From assembly GCA_026390585.1 (NCBI GenBank), contig JAPLFP010000358.1:17659-81658 (forward strand): a stretch of DNA of 64,000 bases, in the 5' to 3' direction. The notes beneath the pieces are model-generated. The model searched no databases. It had not been told where the DNA came from and worked only from the letters and a program-made list of their open reading frames with translations. Origin of the DNA: Ignavibacteriales bacterium. GTDB lineage: Bacteria; Bacteroidota; Ignavibacteria; UBA10030. Positions 27,401-60,079 of this stretch are shown here, one piece after another; within the stretch, counting starts at the first letter, position 1, and every line of letters begins with the position of its first letter. The position numbers and the translations under genes were made by a program.

Positions 27401-27430
27401 CAAAAACAAGGTCGCCTCCGCGGCGACCTT
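27401..27430 (-). terminator. rho-independent terminator after the pilin-like operon
   Basis: aaggtcgcc (27408..27416), tccgc, ggcgacctt (27422..27430): a 9-bp stem. On the minus strand it is followed by GTTTTTG (27407..27401), 26 nt after the stop at 27456. Confidence 0.6.
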
Positions 27431-27455: not shown

Positions 27456-28682
27456 CTATTCAAACCACGAGACAACCTCAAAGTTGCCCGTCGTCGGAAA
27501 GAACGGCGGAGCGTCGTTCATCAGGCGATCGTCGTAGTATGTGCCCCCCGGCTGGAAGCCGTGTATGACTGTCGGATTCTGGCCGCCGGAAAAGACGCCC
27601 GTGTAGCCGCCGATGTTCTGGATCATGCCGCCAACCGTGATCATCTTTCCTTCGACCGGGCGCGTGTTGTAGTTTTCAGCCCAGAGGCCATCGGTTCGTG
27701 AGAATATGGACCCCATGAGGGTAAAATCGTTGTTGGGACCGCGATTTGCGGGAACGTCACTGATATAAAGTTTGTCTTCGGCGCAGAGTCCGAGCATGTC
27801 GGTCGAATAACCGGACCGCGGGTCAGTATTGTACGTGATATCTCCATCGATCCAGACATATTTCCTGGCGCCAACAGTCACTCTGCCGTTCAGCACTCCC
27901 TTGATGTGCAAGTTGTTCTCATTGCACCAGACGGCACCGTTTGGAGCAAATGTTGTGAGGGGCTCGATCGTCCAACCGCCGCCACTCCAGTCGGTATTGC
28001 CATCAATTCTCCATTTCACATTTCCGTTTGCCAAGAACTCTATGAAGACCGGCTGGTTTCCGGACATCTGAAGCCACTTGCCGCCGGAGTTCGCCGCCGT
28101 CTTGAGAGGAGTGAGGTCCGATGGAAGAGTGACATTCACACCGTTGTCATACCCCCCCTTGAACACTGGATGTGCTAGCCCCTGGTAGTTGTTGATACCG
28201 TTCAGGCTGGTAGCGCGTTGCATGAACACGGGATTGCCGGCCACGTTCAGGAAATTATTGCAGTGGAATGGTCCCCAGATGGTGTCGCCGGTGATCCAGT
28301 ACCCGTTTTGGTCTGTGACGCTGTAGTAGTTGAATCTTGAGAAGCTGCTTGGTTGGAGGACGCAGGCCACAACGCTGGTGGTGCCTGCAAATGTGCCTGT
28401 AGACGTCATCTTCACCTGGTTGCCCCCAAGGTCTACCACTTGGACGCTGAAGGTGCCGCCGCCAAAACTCTTGTTGGAGAACCCAGCACGCCAGAGCGGA
28501 TTTTCGAAGATCGCTCGGGAGGCGAGGTTCATGCCAGCTCCAGCCAGGCTGTGGGCCATAGCTGAGTTGTTGTAGTACGTGTAGTTTTCCATCGCTGAGT
28601 TCGAAACATTGGAAATGTTCGAACCGATCATCATCAGCGCTGTTGTAAAACCTAAAACCATAATCAGTGCAGACCGACCCAT
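27456..28682 (-). CDS. PilX_N-like membrane-anchored protein with beta-helix-like ectodomain, paralog 1
   Basis: 408 aa. N-terminus MGRSALIMVLGFTTALMMIGSNI...AMAHSLAGAGMNLASR (PilX N-terminal pattern). SD AGGAGGGTG upstream. Repetitive beta-strand-rich body. Tail PTTGNFEVVSWFE. Confidence 0.6.
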   Translation of the reverse strand: MGRSALIMVLGFTTALMMIGSNISNVSNSAMENYTYYNNSAMAHSLAGAGMNLASRAIFENPLWRAGFSNKSFGGGTFSVQVVDLGGNQVKMTSTGTFAGTTSVVACVLQPSSFSRFNYYSVTDQNGYWITGDTIWGPFHCNNFLNVAGNPVFMQRATSLNGINNYQGLAHPVFKGGYDNGVNVTLPSDLTPLKTAANSGGKWLQMSGNQPVFIEFLANGNVKWRIDGNTDWSGGGWTIEPLTTFAPNGAVWCNENNLHIKGVLNGRVTVGARKYVWIDGDITYNTDPRSGYSTDMLGLCAEDKLYISDVPANRGPNNDFTLMGSIFSRTDGLWAENYNTRPVEGKMITVGGMIQNIGGYTGVFSGGQNPTVIHGFQPGGTYYDDRLMNDAPPFFPTTGNFEVVSWFE

Positions 28683-28820
28683 ACCGCTTCACCCTCCTAC
28701 CGGTGCAATGATTATGTATCGCGATACGCTAGGTTTCTGGACTACCTCCCGTAGTCCGTCAAAGCAAAGAACCTATTTTGCGCGATATCCCCGATTTCGA
28801 CAAACATGGGGTCCGCTATG

Positions 28821-28891
28821 TTAAACCACGAAATTACCTCAAAGTTCCCGGTTATCGCAGTACGTGACACCCGGTACAAAGCCGTGAATGG
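28821..28891 (-). pseudogene. 3'-end remnant of a third PilX-like paralog
   Basis: ttaaaccacgaaattacctcaaagttcccggttatcg...acccggtacaaagccgtgaatgg aligns with the last ~110 nt of both paralogs (27456.. and 29042..), with an internal deletion of about 36 nt. It encodes ...TGNFEVISWFN. Confidence 0.6.
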
Positions 28892-29041
28892 CAAAAACTG
28901 CTGCACAATGGGTACACAAAGAAAGGGCAAGCGCGGCGCTCATCAGTCCTTGGTGGGATTGACATGCACTTGGCTTGCCCTACGGTGTATGTTGCGCTAA
29001 AACCCTTGAATTAGGTCTTTCTCAGGTATAGAGGATGACTT

Positions 29042-30271
29042 CTACTCAAACCACGAAACCACCTCAAAATTCCCTGTCGTTGGGAAATACGGTGGAGCGT
29101 CATTCAGCAGCCGATCGTCATAGTATGTACCCCCCGGCGTGAAGCCGTGAATGATCGAACTACCGGAAAACACACCCGTGTACCCGCCGATTTTCTGTAT
29201 CTGCCCCCCAACCGTTGTCATTTTTCCTTCAACAGGGCGAGTGTTGTAGTGTTCCGCCCAGAGACCGTCTGTCCGTGAGAATATGGAGCCCATGAGGGTA
29301 AACTGATTGTTGGGACCGCGGTTTTCGGGAACGTCGCTGATATAGAGCTTCTCGTCAGCACAGAGTCCGAGCAGGTCGTCCGAGTAACCGAGCCGTGGGT
29401 CTGCAGCGTACGTGAGATCTCCGTCGATCCAGACAGTCTTCTTGCAGCCAACGGTCACCTTTCCGTTCAACACTCCCTTGATGTGAAGGTCTTTCTCCTG
29501 GCACCAGACTGCGCCATTCGGAGCAAACGCTGTAAGAGGCTCGGTCGTCCAGCCGCCTCCGCTCCAGTCAGGATTGCCGTCAATCCTCCATGTTACCGTC
29601 CCATCGGCGTTGAACTGTATAAAGACCGGCTGATTTCCAGCCATCTGGAGCCATTTGCCATTCGTTGCTGCTGCGTTTTTGAGCGTATCAAAATCACCCG
29701 GAAGGGTGACATTCACACCACTGTCATATCCCCCCTTGAAAACCGGGTGGGCGTTATTGTAGTTCCAGATCCCGTTCAAACTCGTCGCACGCTGCATGAA
29801 CACAGGGCTGCCGCCATTGGTGTAGGCCACGTTCAGAGTGTTGTTGCAATGGAATGGTCCCCAGATAGTATCACCGCCGACCCAGAACCCGCTCTGGTCT
29901 GTGACGCTGTAGTAGGTGTACCTCGAAAAGGTGCTTGGTTGGAGCACGCAAGCTACAACACGTTGGATGCCGGCAAACGTTGATGTCGATGTCATCTTCA
30001 CCCTGTTACTACTTCCAAAGTTTGCCACCGTGACGTTGAACATGCCGCCGCCAAAACTCTTGTTGGAAAAGCCGTTGCGCCAGAGTCGATTCTCAAAAAT
30101 TGACCGTGACGCGAGGTTTATGCCAGCACCTGCTATGGCGTGTGCCATGGCGTTGTTGTTGTAGGCTGTGTAGTTTTCCATCCCCGCGTTGGAGACTTTG
30201 GTGATGTTCGAACCGATCATAAGCAGGGCTGTCGTAAAGCCCAAGACCATAATGAGTGCTGATCGTCCCAT
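29042..30271 (-). CDS. PilX_N-like membrane-anchored protein with beta-helix-like ectodomain, paralog 2
   Basis: 409 aa. Collinear with paralog 1; by eye roughly three quarters of positions are identical. SD AAGGAG 7 nt before ATG 30271. Confidence 0.6.
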   Translation of the reverse strand: MGRSALIMVLGFTTALLMIGSNITKVSNAGMENYTAYNNNAMAHAIAGAGINLASRSIFENRLWRNGFSNKSFGGGMFNVTVANFGSSNRVKMTSTSTFAGIQRVVACVLQPSTFSRYTYYSVTDQSGFWVGGDTIWGPFHCNNTLNVAYTNGGSPVFMQRATSLNGIWNYNNAHPVFKGGYDSGVNVTLPGDFDTLKNAAATNGKWLQMAGNQPVFIQFNADGTVTWRIDGNPDWSGGGWTTEPLTAFAPNGAVWCQEKDLHIKGVLNGKVTVGCKKTVWIDGDLTYAADPRLGYSDDLLGLCADEKLYISDVPENRGPNNQFTLMGSIFSRTDGLWAEHYNTRPVEGKMTTVGGQIQKIGGYTGVFSGSSIIHGFTPGGTYYDDRLLNDAPPYFPTTGNFEVVSWFE

Positions 30272-30286
30272 GGTGTACTCCTTTGT

Positions 30287-30934
30287 CTATCTGTTTCGCA
30301 GGTTGCGCGATGCGAGCCGGATTTGTTTCCAGTATACTTTGAAGTCTTCCGAAGCCGACGTGCTGTCACGGTATTCAATCTGTGTCATCGGCGCAGGACT
30401 CTCAAGCGAAACGTTTATTTCCAATGTATAGATGAGCTTTGGATCCGCGATGGGAAATGGGAGAGTATCGCCCAGGGCGTCGTAATAACGAAGAGCAAAC
30501 CGCGTGACGCCAAGATTCCAACCCGTTGCCGTGTTTCCATTGACCACGCGATAAAGGGGTTTTTCGCGTGGGTTGTTCGGGTTGCCACCAATGGAGCCTG
30601 TGTAGTACCAGATGGTATCAACAATTCCATCACCAAATTCGGTTGGAGCCGGACTTGCCGGAATGTCTGTGAGGAATTTGATGCTCACGGAATCCGCGTA
30701 CACGATGGCAATGTTCGGTGGACTGATCTTGGTGAAGTCTTTGCAGTAACCGATCTTTCGGAAATCGGCTTCAACAATGTCGACCAGCGCAACCATTCCT
30801 TGCTGAAGATTGAGATTGTTCTGGTAAATGGCATTTGTCTCGATGGCCTGAGCGTTCAGCCGCAGCGCCATCAGCAAGAGCATGCCTCCGATGACCGTCG
30901 ATGTGATGATGTCGAATATGGTGGTGGTTCCCAT
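30287..30934 (-). CDS. PilW-like (minor-pilin-like) protein lacking a prepilin leader
   Basis: 215 aa. MGTTTIFDIITSTVIGGMLLLMALRLNAQ...LQQGMVALVDIVEADFRKIGY parallels the PilW N-terminal helix and the following conserved segment. An in-frame TGA (30940..30938) lies two codons upstream of the ATG. Confidence 0.5.
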   Translation of the reverse strand: MGTTTIFDIITSTVIGGMLLLMALRLNAQAIETNAIYQNNLNLQQGMVALVDIVEADFRKIGYCKDFTKISPPNIAIVYADSVSIKFLTDIPASPAPTEFGDGIVDTIWYYTGSIGGNPNNPREKPLYRVVNGNTATGWNLGVTRFALRYYDALGDTLPFPIADPKLIYTLEINVSLESPAPMTQIEYRDSTSASEDFKVYWKQIRLASRNLRNR

Positions 30935-30937
30935 AGA

Positions 30938-31468
30938 TCACCTGAATGACCAGTTACTGAAGAGGTATGACATCTGAAGCGTGTCTTGTGAAGCGCGTCC
31001 CCTGACGTAGACGGTAAGCTTCTTCATCCACGTCCTGTAGGCCCTGTACGTATTTGGATTTGAGGTATCGACATAGCAAACTTTGGCCCACCGTAGAAAT
31101 ATATCCACATCCGGGATCACGACCGTGTCAGCCCTCACGATGATGCTATCTCGCGAGGGGCCACCCCTCATCCAGTTGTAATCGTCGAAATCATTGTAAT
31201 CGGGACGAAGCTCACCCACCTCCGGGCCGAGCGAATCGTACGGCGTGAGCTGAGTCAGGTATTGAGGGAAGCCGACCAGGGAATACCTGTCGAACGCCTT
31301 GCCGCGGGCCTCTTCAAGAAGGGATGTCGCAAGCGATACACCGAAAAGTCCGATCTCGGTTTGCTGGAGAACAACTCCGTGCTGCAGGAATGTCCTGTTC
31401 ACGCTGACGACGTTCGTACCCAGGAGTACGATGGCAACGATGGTGAGAACAGTCTGGCCAGTGCCCAT
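30938..31468 (-). CDS. PilV/FimU-like (minor-pilin-like) protein lacking a prepilin leader
   Basis: 176 aa. MGTGQTVLTIVAIVLLGTNVVSV...GVSLATSLLEEARGKAF. RBS-like GAAAGG upstream. An in-frame TAG (31477..31475) lies three codons upstream of the ATG. Confidence 0.45.
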   Translation of the reverse strand: MGTGQTVLTIVAIVLLGTNVVSVNRTFLQHGVVLQQTEIGLFGVSLATSLLEEARGKAFDRYSLVGFPQYLTQLTPYDSLGPEVGELRPDYNDFDDYNWMRGGPSRDSIIVRADTVVIPDVDIFLRWAKVCYVDTSNPNTYRAYRTWMKKLTVYVRGRASQDTLQMSYLFSNWSFR

Positions 31469-31550
31469 GCGAATCTACCTTTCTTCCAATTCTTCACAGC
31501 GGATGTTGGCGAAGTAACTGTCCGACGGACATACGCCTAATGTTGCAATT

Positions 31551-31579
31551 AAATTAGTTGATTGGTGATAGAACATCAA
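31551..31579 (-). promoter_or_regulatory. candidate sigma-70-type promoter of the pilin-like operon
   Basis: Minus strand: TTGATG (31579..31574), 17 nt, TAATTT (31556..31551), about 80 nt upstream of ATG 31468. Pattern match only. Confidence 0.3.
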
Positions 31580-33111
31580 ATGACCCTTGTCACTTTCGAG
31601 AATTTCTGCGACGTTGGGTGAATTCACTACAAGCTTTGGATATACATCTCAATTGACGTACCAACGCGGTTTTGTCGTGTATTCCTGGGGTTTCCGAAAG
31701 TTTCGGAACGACGAAAAGACGATTTTCCTTTTTGGACAGAAAGAAAACGAGACATGTCTCATTATGTAACAAAGAGAATACCATCGAAATTCCCAAGATC
31801 TTTGGCAAGCCGGGAAGCCCGGCGTCGAACTGTAAGCACATTACGTTTCCCCAAGCTCTTTTCCAGGGCACTTCCAGAACAAGCCCCCCTTGATCTGGTT
31901 CTCTATGGTCGACAAACAACGGCATCAAAGCGGAGAAAATCTCTGGTGCGTTTGCGCGTGATGTCGATAAGATCTTCACAACAAATGTTGATCGGTTCTT
32001 CGCGAACCTGGAACGCTGAGCCGATTGTAAGCAACAGCCTTCCCCGACATAGACAACTGTTGGCAAGGACGTCTATGCTACGATGTTTGATCGCTAAGCG
32101 GAGAACGCGGGACCTCCCCATCTTTCATCTGCCGTTTGCCAGCGCTGTAATCTCCGATCATTCCATTGGGTCCGATCTGGACAAGCGAGCAAGACGTATT
32201 TTTCCCGGCGATAGTCCTATTATAGATATGGTTCGCCGCTACGTCCAGCTCACATTTCATGATTGGGTGTCGGTCGATTGTATGCATATCAGAAAAGCCA
32301 CCCTCTGAGTTATGTGGTTTCTTCTTGAAAACGATCTTGCGCCCGCCCTTGATGAACCGCAGACTCTCCAGAACCGCAATGTCATCACAGGTTCCGAATT
32401 GCTGAGATCGGAAACGTGCCCGCTGAACCATTGATGCTCCGCGTAAACCGCGGGCATCGAACAGACCGGGGCTAACATCTTTGTAGAGAGCGCTCGACGA
32501 GGTCGCAACTCATAGCAGCACACTTCGCCTGAACGAAAGGCGCGAACAATGTGTCATCCTACTGCAGCACGCATGCCCGGTTAGACCATCCTGGAGGAAA
32601 TTGGCACTGCAAACACCGTCAACGCGTACAAGCTGCTTTATTTTATTAGAGAACATTCTTCCCCCTGGCCACCCTCTCCCATCATATCAATGCGGACGAT
32701 ATACGGCTGCCGCCTCTGTGATCCGTCGAGAAGCAGATGGAAATGTGGCATTTCGATGCTGTAGAGATAGTAACATTCGTTGGACTGATGAAAGTGAGTA
32801 TAACTCGTCAGTGCGGCGGCGCCCTGCATGAGCTCAAGCAATGAACTATCTGTGAATCGTAAAACGGCGATGCGAGGGAAATGCTTTCTGCGGAAACAGG
32901 TTGTGAAAGCCCTTCTTGTGCAATTGCCTCGAAGGTGACAGGGACAAGCAAGGACATTGGGAGCGATGTTTGTATATGCAGAAGTGAGCTGGTGTCTGTA
33001 AGGAGTGGAGATGGGCGCTGAGCTCATCGAGAGACTGAACGAGTCGACGACTCCTATCCTCCGTTGCGGTGAAGCGCGGGGGCACTAACCGCCTCGGATC
33101 AGAGCGCTAGA

Positions 33112-39797: not shown

Positions 39798-41312
39798 TCA
39801 CTTCAAGAGAATGAGCTTCTGAAAGAGAGTGTTGTTCCCAACGCGTAACCGGGCAATGTATACTCCGCTGGATGCGGATGATGCATTGAAGAGCACCGCG
39901 TGCGTTCCTGCTGGCATACGTTCATCGACGAGCGACACAAGTTTCCTCCCGAGCATGTCAAAAACCTCGAGATTGACAAACGAGGAAGATGGAATATCAA
40001 ATGAAAGCGCCGTGATGTAATTGAATGGATTCGGATAATTCGCGAAGAGTTTGACGACACTCGGGGGTGAATAGCTCGATAAGCGTCGTTGAGCAAAGAG
40101 GGAGCTTGTACGGGAAAGCAGGCCACAGAGCGGGTCGCTCGAAGGACAGAAGAACTGATATCCGTCGGGGTTCACCTGGCCCGCGTACGCAAGCTGCCAG
40201 AAAAGAAGTCCCGATGTGTTTTCAGAGAACGCTGTGCTGCTCACGGCGTCAAAGAACGGGGCGCGTTGCTTGCGAATCCCCACTTCACCAATGAGAAGAG
40301 GTTTCTGTTGCCCAAACGCCATTCGTTGATGGTCCTGAATCCAGTCGGACACCGCGCCGGGTACAAAACCCCAATCTTCAGGATAGAAATGGACACTTGC
40401 TACGTCGATGGCATCCAGCTGGATATTCTTGAGATATGAAATGCCTGCACTTCCATTGAACATCCACTGTTGAGCAGCGAAGAGCGCTGTGGTATATGGC
40501 GTTCGCTGCACGTCGTGCCCTTCCTCTCCCGTCCCAACACAATGCGCTCTATCAATCTGTTTTACGAAGGTGGCCATTTCCTGAATCCAGCCGGCGATGA
40601 GATTGCCGGATGGGTCTGAGGATCGCGGCTCATTTGCGAGCTCCCAAAGCATGATTGCAGGTTCGTTCTTGTAGGCGCGGCCAGTATAGACGTTGAAGCG
40701 ATTGAGAAGCATCGAGACGTAGTTCTTGTACCACTGCTTGATTGTCGCATTCCGATAAAAGTCGTCGTGTGTGTAGAATGACGTTGGTTGCACGAGATAC
40801 GAACGCCCCCCGACACTCGTTATTGTTGGGGATGACACCATATTCTCAGTTTGCAGAAATCTTTTCGCCAGCGAGCCGCTGTCAAGCCATCGGACGTATT
40901 GATTCATTCCGCCATAGTAATCCCAGTTGTCTACAAATGTCAGAACAAGGCGTAGCGAATACTCTTTTGCTTTCGCGATAACATAGTCGAGAGCGCGCAG
41001 GGCGCTCTCATTGTAACGCCCCGGAGCGAACTGCATGATTGCGGAATTCGTGGAGTCCGTCCCGTCGTTGAACGCCCATGTGCGGATTGCGGTGAAACCG
41101 AGTTCTCGTGCAGCTCTGAGCACTTCCACAAGATGTACGGTGTCCCCCTGAACGGCAAGGTCGTGAAGGTAGTAGCAATTTGCCCCAACAGCGTAAAACG
41201 GTTTACCTGTCAATGTCAGAAGCGCTCCATCCCTCTGAACAAAGGATGAGTCTTGCGCGATGGTTATGGCGATTGGGAATAAGAGGGAAAAGAAGAGCAG
41301 TGCAAGTTTCAT
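39798..41312 (-). CDS. glycoside hydrolase family 5 enzyme (mannanase/cellulase-like) with T9SS type-A C-terminal sorting domain
   Basis: Start at ATG 41312 (MKLALLFFSLLFPIAITIAQ). Acid/base motif WELANEP; candidate nucleophile LLIGEVG. C-terminal NYPNPFNYITALSFDIP...VFDMLGRKL...GVYIARLRVGNNTLFQKLILLK is a Por secretion tail. Confidence 0.8.
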   Translation of the reverse strand: MKLALLFFSLLFPIAITIAQDSSFVQRDGALLTLTGKPFYAVGANCYYLHDLAVQGDTVHLVEVLRAARELGFTAIRTWAFNDGTDSTNSAIMQFAPGRYNESALRALDYVIAKAKEYSLRLVLTFVDNWDYYGGMNQYVRWLDSGSLAKRFLQTENMVSSPTITSVGGRSYLVQPTSFYTHDDFYRNATIKQWYKNYVSMLLNRFNVYTGRAYKNEPAIMLWELANEPRSSDPSGNLIAGWIQEMATFVKQIDRAHCVGTGEEGHDVQRTPYTTALFAAQQWMFNGSAGISYLKNIQLDAIDVASVHFYPEDWGFVPGAVSDWIQDHQRMAFGQQKPLLIGEVGIRKQRAPFFDAVSSTAFSENTSGLLFWQLAYAGQVNPDGYQFFCPSSDPLCGLLSRTSSLFAQRRLSSYSPPSVVKLFANYPNPFNYITALSFDIPSSSFVNLEVFDMLGRKLVSLVDERMPAGTHAVLFNASSASSGVYIARLRVGNNTLFQKLILLK

Positions 41313-41450
41313 GGCACCACCATTGTACGAAAAACGCGTCCCCGGCAAAAGCAAAAAACCGATGGGGGGGGTAAAGGTTTGGCAATTTTGATTTCCTCCG
41401 GAATCTGCTACATTACTATGCGAAGAATATCTTCGTCAATACAAGAAATC

Positions 41451-48674: not shown

Positions 48675-51600
48675 ATGAAACACATCAGAATCCTCCCGAT
48701 CTGCCTTTTGGTCTGTTTCGCCGTGACCTTGCCTGCTCAGCAACAGAAGTTGGAAGTAGTCGCGAACTCACCAAAAGGAACGACACAGAGCCTTGATCAA
48801 TCGCAGACAGTTTTCGTCTGCTTTAATCAGCCTATGGTTCCCCTTATGGAGGCGCCGCAAGATGAGGATGTGGGACCGATGCTCCTTGTGCCGAAAGTAC
48901 GAGGCAAATATCGATGGATGGGTACCAAGATGTTGGCGTTCACTCCGGCAGACACCCTGCCCCCTGCGACGGCTTTCAAAGTATCGGTGCCCCGGGGGAC
49001 AAAATCTCTTTCGGGACAATCCTTGGATCAGGACTATTCGTGGACCTTCGAGACCCCGCGACCGACGGTGGTTCAATTCAATCCGGATACGGCAGACCTC
49101 AATGCGCAGTTCTTCCGCTATGGTCTGACCAAGTATGAAAGGGTGATTCTCTTAAAGTTCAACATGCGCATCGATCCGGGGTCTCTGGCCGACTTTATTC
49201 AGTTGTCTGAAATCTCAAAAGGGTCTGCCATAGCGGTGCCGTTTAGCTTACGACATCCAACGGAAAAAGAACTGAGTTCATCTTGGCATTGGACGCCATT
49301 TGATCACTCGATCGTTGTAATTCCAACGCAACCGCTCAAGCCGCTACGCCAGTACATGGTCTGCTGCAAAGCGGGTCTCCGCACAATGCAAGGCCCGCTC
49401 GGGATGGAATCGAATTTTGAATTCTCATTTACCACGCCGAGAAAGCTTGCAATTACGAGCATCGGGAAGGGCAAAGGTGGGTGGGGTGGTGGTGAGGTTG
49501 CCGTAAGGTTTTCCAATCCACTCGGTTCCAATTGGAACATCGGCCAAGATAAAACCTTCCTTTTCAATCCGCCAATCGCCAGTAGCAAGCTCTCCTTTGG
49601 CACGGGGAGTGATTCCACCTTCTTAATCTATGGCCCATTCGAGCCGGATCGGGAATACACACTCACCATAGGGCGGGGCATCAAGGACATTTTTGGAGAC
49701 ACACTCGCGGAGACGTCTCACTTTGCATTTAAGACTTCACCAACGCCAACTTCTGTGTCGCTCGGTGGGCCTCATCTCGTCCGCGCTGATAGCGTATTCA
49801 CGTACCCCTTAACGTTTGTCAATGCTGACCAGGTGAGGATCGATGTGTATCAAATAGATCCGGATATTATCATACCCATCCTTCGTAACCTCGAAATCTT
49901 TTCCACGTCATATTCTCCCTGGCCTGAATTCCTCTTTTTTGATAGGGGGAATGTCTCTCCCCAGCAATGGAATCGTATCTACTCGAAAGAGTGGTCAATA
50001 CGGTCTGAGCGCAACAAACCGGTAATGCAGATGCTTGTTCTCAACGAGCTATCGAATGTGAACAAACGCGGAATCTTTCTTATTCAAGCAGACCTCTTCA
50101 AACAGGTTGGAGGCGACCGACGCTACCGACACAATCTTGTTCAATTCACCAACCTGGGCATTACTGCAAAGTTTTCTACGGACACGAATCTTGTTTGGGT
50201 CACAAGACTCAATGATGGTTCTCCGGTCAGCGATGCAAGTGTCGAAATACGCGGGGACAGTAATGTCGTTGCTTGGAGGGGTCGAACGGATCATCGGGGA
50301 ATTGTTCTCACGCCGGGTTGGCGTCGGCTCGGACTTCGTACAAAGTACTCGTGGGAAGAAATTCCACCGCAGTGGGTCATTGTCAAATACGGAGACGACG
50401 CAGCATTTGCGTCATCTGATTGGACCTTCGACATTCAACCCAAGGATTTCCGGCTGCAAGCGGTGGACACCCGTCGAGAAAGTCATTTCCGCGCGGTCAT
50501 CTTCACGGACCGGAATCTTTACCGACCTGGTGAACAAGTGCAGATCAAAGGGATCGTACGCCAGTTGGTCAACGATCGGCTGATCGTTCCTCAGGATGTA
50601 AAACTGCGCTTTGTGGTTTCGAACAACAGAAGCAAATCACTTCTCCAGGTTGAGCCTACGGTAACGGCCTTCGGGTCTTTTTCTGTAAATCTGCCGCTGG
50701 ACAAGGACGCCTCTCTCGGAAAGCACTGGATGACGTTGACCCGGATGAAACGGGCCGACGAACCTCGAGGGTATTACGATGAACCTTGGGAAACGATCAC
50801 AAGTGAACAATTTGAAGTGGAGATGTTCAAGTCATCGGATATCGAAGTCAAGCCAACGATCGACTCGAAACAATACATCATGGGTGATTCGCTGAGAGCG
50901 TCAATCTCTGCACACTATCTCTTTGGCGCACCTTACAGAAACGAGCCGCTTTCATGGAAGATCTTTCTGAAGCCGGAGAGTTGGCGGCCGCAGGGATTTG
51001 GGGAATATTTCTTCGGCTTGCTCCCATGGAAATCATCCCGACAGCAGAGATGGCGTCAGCCAGATTTTGAGCGAAAGGATACACTTGATGCCTTGGGATG
51101 TCGCCAAGTCGGGTACAAGATACCAACGGGTGTGTTTGACGGAACTCAATCGCTGCGACTTGAAGGCGAAGTCTTTATGAAAGACTATCGTTCCGTGGCA
51201 GGATCCGCGACAACGATTGTGCACAACGGAGAATTCTCTCTGGGCATTGCTCCCGGCACGACGTTCGCTTCAGAGGGAAAAGACATCAGTTGCAGATTCG
51301 TCGCTGTAAGACCCGATCAGCAAGTTCAAAGCGGTGTATCCTTCACCGCAAAGGTGATCCGAGAAACCTGGAGAAGAGAGCAGGAAAAGGATACAACTGG
51401 GAAAACCAACATCCGCTGGAAACTCCACGATAGCGTCGAAACAGTCGTTGGCCTACGGACATCCGACAAACCTCTCCGGTGGCAGTTCAAACCAGCGCAA
51501 GCAGGTTTCTATCTCCTTGAAGCTGAAGGGAAGGACGCACGCGGAAACAACGTACGCTCCCAAGCATATTGCTACGTCAGCGGCGTGGGGACTTCTCCCT

Positions 51601-54368
51601 GGAGCCGGAGCGATAGCAACCGCGTTGATCTCATCGTGGACAAACAAAAGTATGAACCTGGAGAAACAGCGCAGATTCTTATCCCTTCACCGTATCAGGA
51701 ATTTCAGGCGTTGGTGACGATCGAGCGAAACGGCATCCTAAGCCAGTTCACAAAAGCCTTCAAGGGAAATTTTCCGCAACTCAGCCTTCCCATGCTGGCA
51801 GAGTATGCTCCGAATGTTTTCGTATCGGTCGTACTTATTCCTTCTCGCGCAGAAGGAGTCCCTGCAAAAGCGGACAAGTCACTCCAGGGTTTTGTCATGG
51901 GCTATGCCAATCTGATTGTGACCCCGAAAGACAAACAATTGTCCGTCGATGTTCGTCCGAAGAATCAGAACTACCATCCTGGGGATACCGTTGACATTGA
52001 TCTTTCCGTGAAGAATGCCGCGGGGAACGGTACAAGATGCGAGATCACTCTGAGTGTTCCTGATCGTGCCATCTTGAACATGACGGACTATCGATTCCCG
52101 TCATTGCTCGATGCTTTTTATGTTCAACGTCCGCTGGGGGTGGAAACGGCCGATTCGCGGCTGCAGTATGTGGAACGCCCTTATCGTCGGAGACCCGAAT
52201 CTGTAGCGATGTATTGTATGGTGGTCGATGGCGAGGGTGATGGCAGAGCTGAACCGCGGAAGGAGTTCCGACCGCTAGCGTATTGGAACCCCGCGATTCT
52301 TACGGATGCCAGAGGGAAAGCGACGGTCAGGTTCAAGCTCGCCGACGATTTGACCGCATTTCAGATAATGGCCTCGGCGCAGACAACGCAATCGGAATTC
52401 GGATACGGAGAAAGCAGCTTCACGGTGAGCAAACCACTCCTGCTCAAACCGTCGCTTCCTCGGTTTGTCCGGGTGGGCGATGTGTTCGAGGGAGGAGTTG
52501 TGGTGCACAACTCCTCGCCGGACGAAAGAAACACGCGGCTTGCCGTGAGCGTCCATGGACTGATTATCAAGGGTGATTCTATCGCAGTCTGCACAGTCAA
52601 GCCCGGGGAAAGCAGAAAAATCCATTTCACATTTTGCGCAGCCAAACTTGGCGAGGCGACATTTGCTTTTGCGGCAACAGAGGAAACCCGACAACTTGAT
52701 GCGCTTCGATGGACGATTCCAATTGAGCCAAGCACGCAGCGCCAGACAATTGCCACCTACGAATCAACCGCCGATGAGAAGACGACCGAGCGCATTATCG
52801 TCCCGGCGAATGCCGATCCCGACGCGGGAGACATTGAAGCGCTCGTATCGTGCAGTGGTTTGGTGGGGCTCAACGATGCTCTTGCCTATTTGCTTAGGTA
52901 TCCATACGGATGCCTCGAGCAAAGACTCTCGGCTCTTCTTCCGTTGATCACAGCGAGCGACTTGGTACGGACTTTCGAACCGGTTGGCCTTCGCGTGTCA
53001 AATGTTGACTCCATTGTCATCACATCGCTGGGCAAGTTTAGAGACTATCAGCTGCCGACAGGAGGATACAGTTATTGGACGTCGGGCAGCGCGGCCAATC
53101 AGTACCTTTCTGCACTTGCAGTCTATGCTCTCGTTCAGGCAAAGCGCGCTCATTATGAAGTCGACACATCTCAGCTCAATCTCGGACTGCGTTATGTCCG
53201 CCTTCTTCTTGAGGGGAAAGAAAAGTCCCGATACTATACAGAAGGGGCGCTCTGGTGTACTCGAGCGCTCATCCTCTACACGCTTGCGCTGGAAGGTCAA
53301 TCCGATGAAAGGGAGATGGCAAGCATGTTCGCCATGCGGCCTCGCCTGCCGATGTTTGCGAAGACATATCTGCTGAAGTCGTTCCTGACCTCCAAGAATC
53401 ATGCGACGGAAGCAGCGCAGCTTGCCGATGAGCTTTCCAATCTCGCCAAGGTTTCCAGCGTTACGGCCCACTTCGAAGAACCGGATGAAACAGGATTTGA
53501 ATGGATTTTCCACTCCACTGCCCGGACCACGGCGCTTGTTCTCCAGGCCCTCATTGAAGTGCAGCCGAAGAACCCTCTGATCCCAAGGATTGTTCGCTGG
53601 CTCCTTGAACAACGTCAATACGGTCGCTGGCGGACAACGCAGGAGAATCTCTACACCATTGATGCTCTCGCGACATACTTCCGGACATTCGAATCCGGTG
53701 AGCCGGACTTGCGGGCTGTGGTCAGACTTGACTCCGTGATCATGGTCGATAAACAACTTGTCAGACAAAAGCTATCGGTTGCATCCGGGAGTTATCCGCT
53801 CTCGCAGCTCAAGGTGGGGAGAGACTATCCGATTCAGTTTGAAAAGAATGGGCGAGGGACTCTCTACTACGGTTTGAGAATGAACTTCTATCCCAAAGGG
53901 AATACGGTCGGCGCCGACGAAGGTCTTGCGGTCCTCAAGACGATCAGTGTGGTAGATACCTTGCTGGCCAGGTCTAGCTCCTATCCGCTCGGCAGTATCC
54001 TCAAAGTGCAGTTGACGGTCATTGCGAACAAAACGCGGACCTTCATTGTAATTGATGACCCGTTGCCGGCAGGATTCGAAGCAATCAATGAGAGGTTCAA
54101 GACAACGGCCTCGTGGGATCGCGATATTGATGATGAAAAGAGCGAATTCCAGCGGTGGTGGAGGCAGTTCCCGTTCAGCAACGTCGAACTCCGCGACGAC
54201 CGCGTCGTGCTTTTTGCAGATGATTTGCCGGCTGGGAGTCACACGTTCACGTATTTTGTTCGCACGACAAGCCGTGGGACGTTCTCTCTGCCGTCGACAC
54301 GAGCTGAGGGAATGTACGAGCCGGAGATATTTGGTCGGACTTCGTCGCAGTTAATAACCATACAATAA
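48675..54368 (+). CDS. alpha-2-macroglobulin family protein with thioester motif (not a predicted lipoprotein)
   Basis: 1897 aa. Signal MKHIRILPICLLVCFAVTLPAQQ. GAGGAG SD 5 nt upstream. Thioester GCLEQ encoded at 52908..52922 in YPYGCLEQRLSALLP. Bacterial A2M N-terminal MG-domain pattern. Confidence 0.9.
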   Translation: MKHIRILPICLLVCFAVTLPAQQQKLEVVANSPKGTTQSLDQSQTVFVCFNQPMVPLMEAPQDEDVGPMLLVPKVRGKYRWMGTKMLAFTPADTLPPATAFKVSVPRGTKSLSGQSLDQDYSWTFETPRPTVVQFNPDTADLNAQFFRYGLTKYERVILLKFNMRIDPGSLADFIQLSEISKGSAIAVPFSLRHPTEKELSSSWHWTPFDHSIVVIPTQPLKPLRQYMVCCKAGLRTMQGPLGMESNFEFSFTTPRKLAITSIGKGKGGWGGGEVAVRFSNPLGSNWNIGQDKTFLFNPPIASSKLSFGTGSDSTFLIYGPFEPDREYTLTIGRGIKDIFGDTLAETSHFAFKTSPTPTSVSLGGPHLVRADSVFTYPLTFVNADQVRIDVYQIDPDIIIPILRNLEIFSTSYSPWPEFLFFDRGNVSPQQWNRIYSKEWSIRSERNKPVMQMLVLNELSNVNKRGIFLIQADLFKQVGGDRRYRHNLVQFTNLGITAKFSTDTNLVWVTRLNDGSPVSDASVEIRGDSNVVAWRGRTDHRGIVLTPGWRRLGLRTKYSWEEIPPQWVIVKYGDDAAFASSDWTFDIQPKDFRLQAVDTRRESHFRAVIFTDRNLYRPGEQVQIKGIVRQLVNDRLIVPQDVKLRFVVSNNRSKSLLQVEPTVTAFGSFSVNLPLDKDASLGKHWMTLTRMKRADEPRGYYDEPWETITSEQFEVEMFKSSDIEVKPTIDSKQYIMGDSLRASISAHYLFGAPYRNEPLSWKIFLKPESWRPQGFGEYFFGLLPWKSSRQQRWRQPDFERKDTLDALGCRQVGYKIPTGVFDGTQSLRLEGEVFMKDYRSVAGSATTIVHNGEFSLGIAPGTTFASEGKDISCRFVAVRPDQQVQSGVSFTAKVIRETWRREQEKDTTGKTNIRWKLHDSVETVVGLRTSDKPLRWQFKPAQAGFYLLEAEGKDARGNNVRSQAYCYVSGVGTSPWSRSDSNRVDLIVDKQKYEPGETAQILIPSPYQEFQALVTIERNGILSQFTKAFKGNFPQLSLPMLAEYAPNVFVSVVLIPSRAEGVPAKADKSLQGFVMGYANLIVTPKDKQLSVDVRPKNQNYHPGDTVDIDLSVKNAAGNGTRCEITLSVPDRAILNMTDYRFPSLLDAFYVQRPLGVETADSRLQYVERPYRRRPESVAMYCMVVDGEGDGRAEPRKEFRPLAYWNPAILTDARGKATVRFKLADDLTAFQIMASAQTTQSEFGYGESSFTVSKPLLLKPSLPRFVRVGDVFEGGVVVHNSSPDERNTRLAVSVHGLIIKGDSIAVCTVKPGESRKIHFTFCAAKLGEATFAFAATEETRQLDALRWTIPIEPSTQRQTIATYESTADEKTTERIIVPANADPDAGDIEALVSCSGLVGLNDALAYLLRYPYGCLEQRLSALLPLITASDLVRTFEPVGLRVSNVDSIVITSLGKFRDYQLPTGGYSYWTSGSAANQYLSALAVYALVQAKRAHYEVDTSQLNLGLRYVRLLLEGKEKSRYYTEGALWCTRALILYTLALEGQSDEREMASMFAMRPRLPMFAKTYLLKSFLTSKNHATEAAQLADELSNLAKVSSVTAHFEEPDETGFEWIFHSTARTTALVLQALIEVQPKNPLIPRIVRWLLEQRQYGRWRTTQENLYTIDALATYFRTFESGEPDLRAVVRLDSVIMVDKQLVRQKLSVASGSYPLSQLKVGRDYPIQFEKNGRGTLYYGLRMNFYPKGNTVGADEGLAVLKTISVVDTLLARSSSYPLGSILKVQLTVIANKTRTFIVIDDPLPAGFEAINERFKTTASWDRDIDDEKSEFQRWWRQFPFSNVELRDDRVVLFADDLPAGSHTFTYFVRTTSRGTFSLPSTRAEGMYEPEIFGRTSSQLITIQ

Positions 54369-54507
54369 AGGCAAAGCCGAGGAGTTGTTACCGTAGATTG
54401 TTCGGGAAGGAGAAAGACTGTTCCGGGCTCAGGAAGTGATAAGGCCGCGTCGGCTCCCGGATAACCGCTCCGGTCTGAAGATGAGCCTCTTTCGCTCAAT
54501 CGTCGTC

Positions 54508-54557
54508 AAAGAAGAAAATCGCAGACCGCGGCTTCACCTCTCGAAGAAGCCGCGGTC
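54508..54557 (-). terminator. rho-independent terminator after the minus-strand A2M gene
   Basis: gaccgcggcttc (54524..54535) and gaagccgcggtc (54546..54557) form a 12-bp perfect stem. On the minus strand it is followed by TGCGATTTTCTTCTTTG. Confidence 0.65.
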
Positions 54558-54583
54558 AGTCGTTTCACACTGAGGCACTCACC

Positions 54584-60022: not shown

Positions 60023-60079
60023 GATAAATCTCCCTGTGATGTGAGTGAACAGATGGATACCTGAACGGTAAACCCGGTG

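What the first reader, a model, noticed from the sequence alone, without database searches (positions are those of the whole stretch)
27456..31468. Four-gene pilin-like operon (PilV/PilW/PilX-like) whose products all lack a prepilin (class III) signal
Seen in sequence:
- Four co-directional genes have spacers of 3, 15 and 359 nt and good SD sites (AAGGAG before ATG 30271, AGGAGGGTG before ATG 28682).
- The 176-aa product starts MGTGQTVLTIVAIVLLGTNVV, then ...SLATSLLEEARG.
- The 215-aa product starts MGTTTIFDIITSTVIGGMLLLMALRL, then ...LQQGMVALVDIVEADFRKIGY, which is very PilW-like.
- Two 408/409-aa products have a PilX_N-like start (MGRSALIMVLGFTTAL.MIGSNI...AMAH..AGAG.NLASR). They continue with about 330 aa of beta-helix/adhesin-like sequence (LHIKGVLNG.VTVG, VWIDGD.TY, KLYISDVP, FTLMGSIFSRTDGLWAE) and a conserved tail PTTGNFEVVSWFE.
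- None has the charged leader / G-1 / F+1 / E+5 motif. Each begins MG plus 2-3 residues and runs straight into the helix.
- In-frame stops within three codons upstream of the first two ATGs (TGA 30940..30938, TAG 31477..31475) exclude longer leaders.
- The window contains no major pilin, PilD, assembly ATPase or PilY1 gene.

Inference: this is either a minor-pilin-like tip complex that is not processed by prepilin peptidase, or a membrane-anchored surface/adhesin complex derived from type IV filament minor pilins. Either would be unusual.
Basis: partly seen in the sequence, partly recalled or inferred. Interest (0 to 1): 0.65.

Follow-up and report, generated by a model that had tools for sequence, protein, structure and literature searches.

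The report
Leaderless type IV pilus tip-pilin cassette
These four genes encode the tip (minor-pilin) set of a type IV pilus in an Ignavibacteria-type bacterium, and like every pilin of this lineage they are made without the usual cleavable leader peptide, which suggests a pilus system that may work without the otherwise universal prepilin peptidase.

Summary
Four co-directional genes (176, 215, 409 and 408 aa) each start MG and run straight into a hydrophobic helix. In-frame stops 1-5 codons upstream leave no room for a leader.

They are pilin-like. The 215-aa model matches GspJ/XcpW/EpsJ. The 409-aa model (pLDDT 90) matches Thermus ComZ, a GspK-like tip pilin with an inserted beta-solenoid. 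The 176-aa protein is called pilin-like from context only.

The 165/220/409-type cassette is conserved across class Ignavibacteria, often in several copies. In 15 loci it lies between pilB and a pilT-like gene, inside a pilin-pilC-pilB-[cassette]-pilT-pilM-like-pilQ locus. The major pilin there also lacks a leader (always MG[QSNT]QQ; 5640 clusters). Distant relatives of the 409-aa protein in other lineages keep a charged leader plus Gly, so the leader was lost.

No A24 peptidase appeared in about 2 Mb of related loci, and the Melioribacter genome paper reports no pilA or pilD.

Best reading: a stand-alone tip/priming cassette of a leaderless T4aP variant. That no prepilin peptidase acts on these proteins is inferred, not shown. 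This is a new variant of a known kind; interest about 0.7.

The parts
30938..31468 (-). 176-aa first gene of the cassette ('m165' family). It has an N-terminal hydrophobic helix, starts MGTGQ with Q at position 5, and carries an invariant DxDD motif (FDDYN region). Presumed GspI/PilV/PilA2-like small minor pilin.
   Evidence: ORF. It is homologous to the first cassette gene of L003 (36% identity, tblastn E 1e-24). The family N-terminus is M[NG]TG[QEH]. There is no Pfam or PDB sequence hit. The pilin identity is inferred from position and architecture only.
30287..30934 (-). 215-aa GspJ/PilW-like minor pilin ('m220' family). It starts MGTTTIFD, with an invariant Asp at position 8.
   Evidence: AF2 model with pLDDT 72: helix 4-59 followed by a beta-sheet. 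Foldseek against PDB gives EpsJ 3cfi, XcpW 3nje/6utu/5vtm, 9a1f and Thermus TTHA1219, all at probability 0.98-1.0 and E 1e-4 to 5e-3. JGI names homologs 'PulJ'. There is a weak PpdB hit. The family has 912 representative clusters, and in the best 150 every alignment starts at protein residue 1-4.
29042..30271 (-). 409-aa ComZ/GspK-like tip pilin ('m409' family). It has an alpha1 helix, a four-strand pilin sheet, a beta-solenoid and a conserved last strand (TTGNFEVVSWFE). It starts MGR.
   Evidence: AF2 model with pLDDT 90.5 and pTM 0.79: helix 4-60, sheet 68-114, solenoid about 120-383, last strand 398-408. The top Foldseek hit is ComZ 6qvi at E 1.5e-7, probability 1.0. 112 homologs were found, and 'MGR/MxGK' is conserved family-wide.
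28823..28924 (-). Frameshifted relic of the 3' end of another 409-type gene, lying inside the 359-nt spacer.
   Evidence: tblastn of the two paralogs against the spacer aligns IHGFVPGVTYCDNREL and TGNFEVISWF to residues 374-408. blastn shows 87% identity over 30 nt to the gene's 3' end. The close relative L005 has three tandem 409-type genes.
27456..28682 (-). 408-aa paralog of the tip pilin, 80% identical to the 409-aa protein.
   Evidence: It has a sub-threshold DUF4900 hit at residues 109-159.
27408..27430 (-). Terminator-like hairpin plus T-run, about 25 nt after the last stop codon.
   Evidence: AAGGTCGCCGCGGAGGCGACCTT GTTTTTGCTC. This is a consensus match only.
31469..31800 (-). Conserved upstream region, probably promoter plus 5' leader. 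It includes the perfect palindrome GAGACATGTCTC at 31749-31760 and the SD-like GAAAGG.
   Evidence: Long invariant blocks are shared with the orthologous positions in L005 and L007. No Rfam match was found.

Best explanation
This is a stand-alone minor-pilin (tip/priming complex) cassette of an Ignavibacteria-type type IVa pilus.

Composition:
- The 176-aa protein is presumed GspI/PilV-like.
- The 215-aa protein is GspJ/PilW-like.
- Either of the two paralogous 408/409-aa proteins is ComZ/GspK-like, with a beta-solenoid inserted before the last strand of the pilin fold.

Proposed mechanism (inferred): the three proteins bundle their N-terminal helices in the inner membrane. They prime polymerisation of the lineage's major pilin (MGQQQ..., encoded elsewhere) on a PilC/PilB platform. 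They end up at the pilus tip, where the solenoid acts as the binding module. The two paralogs would give alternative tips.

The unusual point is shown by sequence. All pilins of this system are encoded without a class III leader. The hydrophobic helix starts 3-6 residues after Met1. The canonical Gly-1/Phe+1/Glu+5 motif is replaced by Q at position 5 (176-aa family and major pilin), Asp at position 6 or 8 (215-aa family), and Lys/Arg next to a Gly (409-aa family).

The likeliest consequence (inferred) is that no prepilin-peptidase cleavage is needed. At most the initiator Met is trimmed.
For: Pilin folds:
- The 215-aa model matches GspJ/XcpW/EpsJ and a Thermus pilin.
- The 409-aa model matches ComZ at E 1.5e-7. 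Its secondary-structure order is the one described for ComZ in PMC6561018.

Linkage to the machinery:
- The cassette lies between pilB and a pilT-family gene in 15 distinct loci.
- Those loci carry 1-4 pilin genes, pilC, pilB, pilT-like, pilM-like and pilQ genes.

No leader:
- In-frame stops lie a median of 3-5 codons upstream in all four families.
- The N-termini are conserved across 94, 87, 97 and 123 unique sequences.
- In 150 representative clusters of the 215-aa family, every alignment starts at protein residue 1-4.

Leader loss:
- Distant relatives of the 409-aa family (P0108, P0110, P0111, P0112) keep charged leaders ending in Gly, and three of the four also keep the C-terminal PPYFPTTG motif.

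Against obligatory Gly-1 cleavage:
- 7 of 94 176-type sequences and 10 of 87 215-type sequences have no Gly in the first six residues.
- 59 of 146 representatives of the 215-aa family have a non-Gly second residue.

No A24 peptidase:
- No A24 motif or A24-like polytopic ORF was found in 1.4 Mb plus 0.59 Mb of related loci, which include about 25 pilus loci.
- By contrast, the Cytophaga T4aP-like cluster has a Peptidase_A24 gene inside it (PMC5553014).

Precedent:
- Thermus ComZ is itself not recognised by PilFind, and its helix starts at residue 5.
Against: - No whole genome of the lineage could be searched for an A24 peptidase. Its absence rests on flanking DNA, a simple motif and one paper about a relative.
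- A Gly is strongly conserved 1-3 residues after Met: 97 of 97 in the 409-aa family, 123 of 123 major pilins, and G|Q in both the major pilin and the 176-aa family. This could be a Gly-1 cleavage site with an ultra-short leader.
- The 176-aa protein has no detectable similarity to any pilin.
- The window itself has no pilus machinery, so function in a pilus is inferred from relatives.
- TM-scores to ComZ are low (0.22-0.35), although probability is 1.0.
- No experiment exists.
Confidence: 0.7

Rival explanations
1. These are ordinary prepilins with an ultra-short leader (M, MG, MNTG or MxG). A prepilin peptidase encoded elsewhere in the genome cuts after the conserved Gly. The mature proteins would then start with Gln (possibly cyclised), Lys/Arg or Thr.
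For: - A Gly lies 1-3 residues after Met in 97 of 97 409-type sequences and in 123 of 123 major pilins.
- G|Q is found in both the major pilin and most 176-type proteins.
- Prepilin peptidase genes are often unlinked 'loners' (PMC6668835).
- From my own recollection, archaeal EppA substrates have Gln at +1, and PibD tolerates very short leaders.
Against: - Several family members have no Gly at all near the N-terminus.
- The distance from the Gly to the conserved polar residue differs between families.
- The 'leader' carries no positive charge.
- No A24 gene was seen in about 2 Mb of related DNA.
- pilD was reported missing in M. roseus.
Confidence: 0.2
2. The products form a membrane-anchored surface or periplasmic adhesin complex that derives from minor pilins but no longer enters a filament. 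The N-terminal helix would act as a permanent signal-anchor.
For: - The window and most loci lack pilus machinery within 10 kb.
- A Lys/Arg beside the helix in the 409-aa family fits a stable N-in anchor.
Against: - The cassette is embedded between pilB and pilT-like genes in 15 loci.
- The major pilin shares the same kind of N-terminus.
- Minor-pilin clusters unlinked to the machinery are normal in other bacteria.
- An inner-membrane anchor could not display an adhesin outside a diderm cell.
Confidence: 0.06
3. The N-terminal hydrophobic segments are ordinary Sec signal peptides removed by signal peptidase I. The products would be soluble secreted or periplasmic proteins, not pilins.
For: The 409-aa N-terminus (MGR, then a hydrophobic stretch, then small residues VSNA) looks superficially like an n-h-c signal peptide.
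Against: - The first 30-60 residues are the best conserved part of each family. Signal peptides are not conserved in this way.
- AF2 models them as one continuous 55-residue alpha1 helix packed on the sheet, as in pilins.
- The 176-aa, 215-aa and major-pilin families have no positive n-region.
Confidence: 0.03
4. The start codons are mis-assigned, and the true proteins carry canonical leaders.
For: None found.
Against: - In-frame stops lie 1-5 codons upstream in the window, and a median of 3-5 codons upstream across hundreds of homologs.
- SD-like sites precede the ATGs.
Confidence: 0.01

Closest known systems
Thermus thermophilus competence-pilus minor pilins PilA2/PilA3/ComZ (PDB 6qvi, 5g23; PMC6561018)
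   Same: [quoted passage not shown] The 409-aa model has the same order of elements, and ComZ is its only significant PDB match.
- The neighbouring 215-aa protein matches the Thermus pilin TTHA1219 and GspJ.
- ComZ also lacks a recognisable class III motif: PilFind is negative and its helix starts at residue 5.
   Different: - Sequence identity is only 12-13%, and the protein is 409 rather than 554 aa.
- In Thermus the partner pilins and the major pilins have canonical signals, and PilFind recognises them. Here every pilin lacks one.
- ComZ binds DNA. Nothing is known about the ligand here.
- Here there are several paralogs and cassettes per genome.
Type II secretion tip complex GspI-GspJ-GspK (XcpV-W-X, EpsI-J)
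   Same: - The gene order is small, medium, large.
- The middle protein has the GspJ fold.
- The large tip subunit lacks the acidic residue at +5.
   Different: - All Gsp pseudopilins have charged leaders and are cut by GspO.
- The GspK insertion is alpha-helical, not a solenoid.
- The associated machinery here includes a PilT-family ATPase and PilB-type ATPase, so it is T4aP-like rather than T2SS.
T4aP core minor pilins FimU/PilV/PilW/PilX with PilY1 (Pseudomonas, Myxococcus)
   Same: - The presumed role is priming assembly and sitting at the tip.
- There are multiple alternative clusters per genome, as I recall for Myxococcus.
- Some clusters are unlinked to the machinery.
   Different: - There are three protein types rather than four or five, and no PilY1.
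- No Pfam N_methyl, PilW or PilX_N match was found.
- There is no leader, no Gly-1/Phe+1 and no Glu+5.
Bacteroidetes 'T2SS'/T4aP-like cluster of Cytophaga hutchinsonii (CHU_3191-3201; PMC5553014)
   Same: It belongs to the FCB superphylum and is a T4aP-related machine needed for cellulose use. Its minor pseudopilins are recognisable only by their N-terminal helix.
   Different: That cluster contains a Peptidase_A24 gene (CHU_3197) and a PulG-type major pseudopilin. The Ignavibacteria loci show neither.

Membership tests
Type IV pilin / pseudopilin (class III signal peptide proteins) | Long N-terminal hydrophobic alpha1 helix packed on an antiparallel beta-sheet | tested here: met
   AF2 models give helix 4-59 plus a sheet for the 215-aa protein, and helix 4-60 plus a four-strand sheet for the 409-aa protein. 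Foldseek matches pilins and pseudopilins. The 176-aa protein was not modelled.
Type IV pilin / pseudopilin (class III signal peptide proteins) | Positively charged leader peptide ending in Gly(-1), followed by a hydrophobic +1 residue | tested here: not met
   The helix starts 3-6 residues after Met1, and in-frame stops lie 1-5 codons upstream. There is no Pfam N_methyl hit.
Type IV pilin / pseudopilin (class III signal peptide proteins) | Glu at position +5 of the mature protein | tested here: not met
   The 176-aa protein has Q at residue 5. The 215-aa protein has D at residue 8, or residue 6 in a sister subclass. The 408/409-aa proteins have none, as in GspK.
Type IV pilin / pseudopilin (class III signal peptide proteins) | Cleavage and N-methylation by an A24 prepilin peptidase | not testable with these tools
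   No A24 gene was found in the window or in about 2 Mb of related loci, and pilD was reported absent in M. roseus. No whole genome could be searched.
Type IV pilin / pseudopilin (class III signal peptide proteins) | Genes linked to pilus assembly genes (ATPase, platform, secretin) | tested here: met
   This is not so in the window. In 15 related loci, however, the cassette lies between pilB and a pilT-like gene.
GspJ / PilW-type minor pilin | GspJ-like fold | tested here: met
   Foldseek probability is 0.98-1.0 to EpsJ, XcpW and the J subunit in 9a1f. At the sequence level there are only a sub-threshold PpdB hit and JGI 'PulJ' names.
ComZ / GspK-type tip pilin | GspK-like pilin domain with a large domain inserted in the sheet (beta-solenoid before the last strand in ComZ), and no Glu+5 | tested here: met
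   One search gives the order of elements. One search gives ComZ at E 1.5e-7 to 1.4e-4 and probability 1.0, with a low TM-score of 0.22-0.35.
ComZ / GspK-type tip pilin | DNA binding and a role in competence | not testable with these tools
   No evidence either way.
PilX_N (PF14341) / DUF4900 (PF16241) | Pfam match above the gathering score | tested here: not met
   There is no PilX_N hit. DUF4900 scores 14.6 bits against a cut-off of 29.4 for the 408-aa protein and 21.8 bits for P0102. About 25 homologs carry a precomputed DUF4900 label.
GspI / PilV-type small minor pilin (176-aa protein) | Pilin fold and sequence similarity | tested here: inconclusive
   There is no Pfam, NCBIfam or PDB sequence hit, and hhalign to the other families is not significant. 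Only the position in the cassette and the N-terminal helix support the assignment.
Type IVa pilus system (lineage level) | PilB, PilC, PilT, PilM-like protein and PilQ secretin | tested here: met
   In L003, PilB matches TIGR02538 at 3e-121, the PilT family model passes its cut-off, and PilC and PilQ are hit. The PilM-like assignment rests on a weak Amuc_1101 match (E 1e-5, well below the model's cut-off). The same set is found in other loci.

The most novel reading that the evidence does not exclude
A whole bacterial class (Ignavibacteria) may run a retractile type IVa pilus without a prepilin peptidase. Its major and minor pilins are encoded 'pre-matured', with only the initiator Met (with or without 1-3 residues) in place of the class III leader. 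Gln or Asp replaces Glu+5. N-terminal trimming, if any, would be done by methionine aminopeptidase. This would break what is regarded as a universal defining feature of the type IV filament superfamily.
Probability: 0.45. Interest if true: 0.85.

Novelty: new variant of a known kind. Interest (0 to 1): 0.7.

Why it matters
The class III leader and its dedicated A24 peptidase are treated as core, ancestral components of all type IV filaments (PMC6668835).

If a large, environmentally abundant lineage assembles pili from leaderless pilins, three things follow:
- Leader cleavage, N-methylation and Glu+5 would not be mechanistically indispensable for membrane extraction and polymerisation.
- It would explain why pilA and pilD were reported 'missing' in Melioribacter, and why pilin-finding tools and Pfam miss thousands of these proteins.
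- It would offer a natural minimal system for studying pilin membrane insertion and assembly.

The multiple ComZ-like solenoid tip paralogs are also candidate adhesins or receptors of polysaccharide-degrading Ignavibacteria.

Tried and rejected
Searches that found nothing useful:
- Pfam and NCBIfam scans of the four proteins, the 176-aa family and the major pilin gave only sub-threshold hits.
- Profile searches of PDB sequences with all four families gave nothing significant. The best was the major pilin against an entry named only 'pilin' (6w8u) at E 0.17.
- hhalign between the 176-aa family and the 215-aa or major-pilin families was not significant.
- Literature searches for leaderless type IV pilins, DUF4900, and pilD in Ignavibacteria gave nothing beyond the M. 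roseus genome paper.

Searches with limits:
- A regex for the GxGD[..]K motif and a scan for polytopic ORFs found no A24 peptidase. This is a low-sensitivity test.
- An exact-sequence look-up of the 215-aa protein found it is not on record.
- Rfam found nothing in the whole window or, at relaxed threshold, in the 1.6-kb upstream gap. Alignment folding of three sequences there was inconclusive.

Readings rejected:
- Mis-called starts, because of the upstream in-frame stops.
- Sec signal peptides, because the N-terminus is the most conserved part of each family.
- T2SS pseudopilins, because the machinery has PilT- and PilB-type ATPases.

Full report
**Observation**

The four ORFs exist exactly as described on the minus strand: 30938-31468 (176 aa), 30287-30934 (215 aa), 29042-30271 (409 aa) and 27456-28682 (408 aa). 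The spacers are 3, 15 and 359 nt, and SD-like sites are present. All four products begin with MG and enter a hydrophobic segment within 3-6 residues. In-frame stops lie 2, 1, 5 and 2 codons upstream of the ATGs, so no longer leader can be encoded. None of the other 40 non-overlapping ORFs of the window starts with MG. The two large proteins are 80% identical. A terminator-like hairpin follows the last gene at 27408-27430.

Neighbouring genes are housekeeping: Nramp, MgtE_N/CBS, a D-Ser-dehydratase-like gene, PdxJ and an M14 peptidase. The window holds no pilus ATPase, platform protein, secretin or major pilin (tblastn with a related pilus locus). It also holds no A24-like peptidase and no PilY1.

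**What the proteins are**

Curated sequence models do not recognise them, and profile searches of PDB sequences find nothing. Structure prediction does recognise two of them.

- The 215-aa protein (59-sequence alignment, pLDDT 72) has a 56-residue N-terminal helix and a beta-sheet. It matches EpsJ, XcpW, the J subunit of the XcpGHIJK model and the Thermus pilin TTHA1219, with probability 0.98-1.0. JGI had already named many homologs 'PulJ'.
- The 409-aa protein (66 sequences, pLDDT 90.5) has helix 4-60, a four-strand sheet at 68-114, a long beta-rich region at about 120-383, and a final strand at 398-408 formed by the conserved tail FEVVSWFE.
- Its only significant PDB match is Thermus thermophilus ComZ (E 1.5e-7, probability 1.0). 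[quoted passage not shown] It is proposed to cap the competence pilus together with PilA2 (PMC6561018).
- The 176-aa protein has no detectable relative outside its own family. I call it GspI/PilV/PilA2-like only because of its N-terminal helix, its size, and its fixed position ahead of the J-like and K-like genes.

**Related loci**

The 409-aa family has 112 close homologs in metagenomes and 219 relatives among species-representative genomes. With one exception these are labelled as Ignavibacteria-type or unclassified Bacteroidota/Bacteroidetes MAGs; some carry 'Chlorobiaceae' or 'Bacteroidia' labels, and L074 is labelled Acidobacteriota.

In 78 genomic loci the order 165-type, 220-type, 409-type is almost invariant. 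It is often duplicated in tandem, extended by extra 409-type paralogs, or followed by variant cassettes with a different third gene. Several MAGs have two or more loci.

Most cassettes stand alone, as in the window. In 15 distinct loci, however, the cassette sits inside a pilus locus with this order: pilin x1-4, pilC, pilB, [cassette], pilT-family ATPase, a PilM-like 522-aa protein, a 298-aa protein, and a PilQ-type secretin. Five otherwise identical pilus loci lack the cassette. It therefore behaves as a module that can sit inside or outside the locus. This linkage, together with the folds, makes the pilus-tip reading much stronger than a pilus-independent adhesin.

**The N-termini**

The leaderless state is lineage-wide and includes the major pilin.

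- Major pilin: a 137-aa protein in 5640 clusters, with no Pfam hit; some copies are named 'PilE' by JGI. It always starts MG[QSNT]QQ (123 of 123 unique sequences, 108 of them MGQQQLL). An in-frame stop lies a median of 4 codons upstream.
- 176-aa family: starts M[NG]TG[QEH], so residue 5 is Q, E or H.
- 215-aa family: starts MGxxT[IL]xD or, in a sister subclass, M[SAGT]xx[LI]D. The Asp is at residue 8 or 6. After Met removal the second type has Asp at +5, exactly as in canonical pilins.
- 409-aa family: starts MG[RK] or Mx G[KR].

A profile of the 215-aa family finds 912 representative clusters in 1.84 billion proteins. In the best 150, every alignment starts at protein residue 1-4.

Distant relatives of the 409-aa family from other lineages keep ordinary charged leaders ending in Gly ('...HPRG|MALVVV', '...DERG|VALITV'), and three of the four (P0108, P0110, P0111) also share the C-terminal PPYFPTTG motif. 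The leader was therefore lost, not absent from the start.

**Processing**

Two readings remain.

(a) No prepilin-peptidase step.
- 7 of 94 176-type and 10 of 87 215-type sequences have no Gly in the first six residues.
- 59 of 146 representatives of the 215-aa family have S, A, T or another residue at position 2.
- The spacing between the Gly and the conserved polar residue differs between families.
- 90% of the second residues are small, so methionine aminopeptidase could act (the enzyme's specificity is from general knowledge).
- No A24 motif or A24-like polytopic ORF occurs in about 2 Mb of related DNA, including about 25 pilus loci.
- The Melioribacter roseus genome paper found pilT, pilQ, pilB and pilC but neither pilA nor pilD. 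The T4aP-like cluster of Cytophaga, in contrast, carries an A24 gene inside it.

(b) An ultra-short leader cut after the conserved Gly.
- This is suggested by the invariant Gly of the major pilin and the 409-aa family, and by the shared G|Q of the major pilin and the 176-aa family.

I could not search any complete genome for A24, so (a) is favoured but unproven. I put it at roughly 0.55 against 0.2-0.25 for (b), within the pilus-tip framework.

**Mechanism proposed**

Shown: the folds, the gene linkage, the absence of leaders, and the loss of the leader relative to outgroup homologs.

Inferred:
- The three proteins insert N-in and bundle their helices like GspI-J-K.
- They prime polymerisation of the MGQQQ pilin on PilC/PilB, and are carried to the tip, where the solenoid binds a ligand.
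- The ligand is unknown. It could be a surface polymer or DNA, by analogy with ComZ.
- The two paralogs, and the other cassettes in such genomes, provide alternative tips.
- Q5 or Asp may stand in for Glu+5, and Lys/Arg3 of the tip subunit may pair with Asp8 of the J-like subunit. This last point is speculative.

**Comparison and novelty**

The closest known system is Thermus PilA2/PilA3/ComZ, followed by GspIJK. ComZ itself is a precedent for a tip pilin without a recognisable class III motif. In Thermus, though, the other pilins are canonical. Here the defining membership features of class III signal proteins (charged leader, Gly-1/hydrophobic +1, Glu+5, N_methyl model) were tested and are not met, while the fold and the genomic linkage are met.

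I therefore file the cassette as working like a minor-pilin tip complex and as a new variant of a known kind. I found no paper describing leaderless bacterial type IV pilins, but the library is incomplete.

**Side observations**

- The 359-nt spacer contains a frameshifted relic of a third 409-type gene.
- The 1.6 kb between the cassette and pdxJ has no ORF or Rfam hit, yet it is conserved with L005 and L007 at the DNA level in all frames. The last 330 nt are highly conserved and contain the palindrome GAGACATGTCTC.
- The 176-aa family has an invariant DxDD motif.
- A conserved 426-aa ten-TM protein of unknown family, together with TPR proteins, lies next to the pilin genes in one sub-lineage.

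Noticed in passing
window 31469-33111: This 1.6-kb stretch between the cassette and pdxJ has no convincing ORF, tRNA or Rfam match. It is nevertheless conserved at the DNA level with L005 (66-73% over about 1.5 kb) and L007, and equally in all six frames. It may be a long 5' leader, a regulatory region or an ncRNA.
   Followed up: partly
window 31469-31800 (palindrome at 31749-31760): The last ~330 nt before the first ATG contain long blocks that are invariant in three genomes. They include the perfect 12-bp palindrome GAGACATGTCTC, a possible operator. These blocks occur only at the orthologous locus, not at other cassettes.
   Followed up: partly
window 28823-28924: The 359-nt spacer between the two large genes holds a frameshifted relic of the C-terminus of another 409-type gene (IHGFVPGVTYCDNREL / TGNFEVISWF). 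This points to recombination or decay among tandem paralogs. Relative L005 has three intact copies.
   Followed up: yes
window 31181-31192 (residues 93-96 of the 176-aa protein): The 176-aa family has an invariant acidic DxDD motif (consensus FDDFDDYN). It may be a metal-binding site, but its function is unknown.
   Followed up: no
L017 11408-13672 (also L014, L016, L020, L027): Variant cassettes lie directly downstream of a standard one. They encode divergent small and J-like proteins (MGSQSLL..., MNTSLDN...) and a different 378-aa third protein. That protein shares only the N-terminal helix with the 409-aa family, which suggests modular exchange of the tip protein.
   Followed up: partly
L003 1337-2617; L163 7985-9268; also L084, L164: A conserved 426/427-aa protein with about 10 TM segments matches no Pfam, NCBIfam or PDB family. 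With TPR proteins, it is transcribed divergently from the major pilin genes in one sub-lineage. It is a candidate pilin-modifying or pilin-processing factor.
   Followed up: partly
L101, L128, L151, L156, L161 versus L111, L117, L144 and others: Otherwise collinear pilus loci either contain or lack the three-gene cassette between pilB and the pilT-like gene. L144 carries two pilus loci in tandem.
   Followed up: partly
major pilin family (alignment A6; e.g. L003 3337-3750): The best PDB match of the profile is a near full-length but non-significant alignment (E 0.17) to PDB entry 6w8u, named only 'pilin', which I recall to be an archaeal pilus. No cysteine is present in the examples seen, and the first 36 residues are almost invariant.
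   Followed up: no
homologs P0210, P0212, P0215 and others of the 215-aa protein: A few homologs carry a precomputed Pfam label, PF27121.1, that the local Pfam copy did not reproduce. I could not find out what this family is.
   Followed up: no
window 39798-41354 and 48675-62389: The window encodes a GH5 cellulase with a T9SS C-terminal sorting domain. It also encodes two large bacterial alpha-2-macroglobulins next to a PBP1C-type penicillin-binding protein. This fits an FCB-group polysaccharide degrader and is unrelated to the finding.
   Followed up: no
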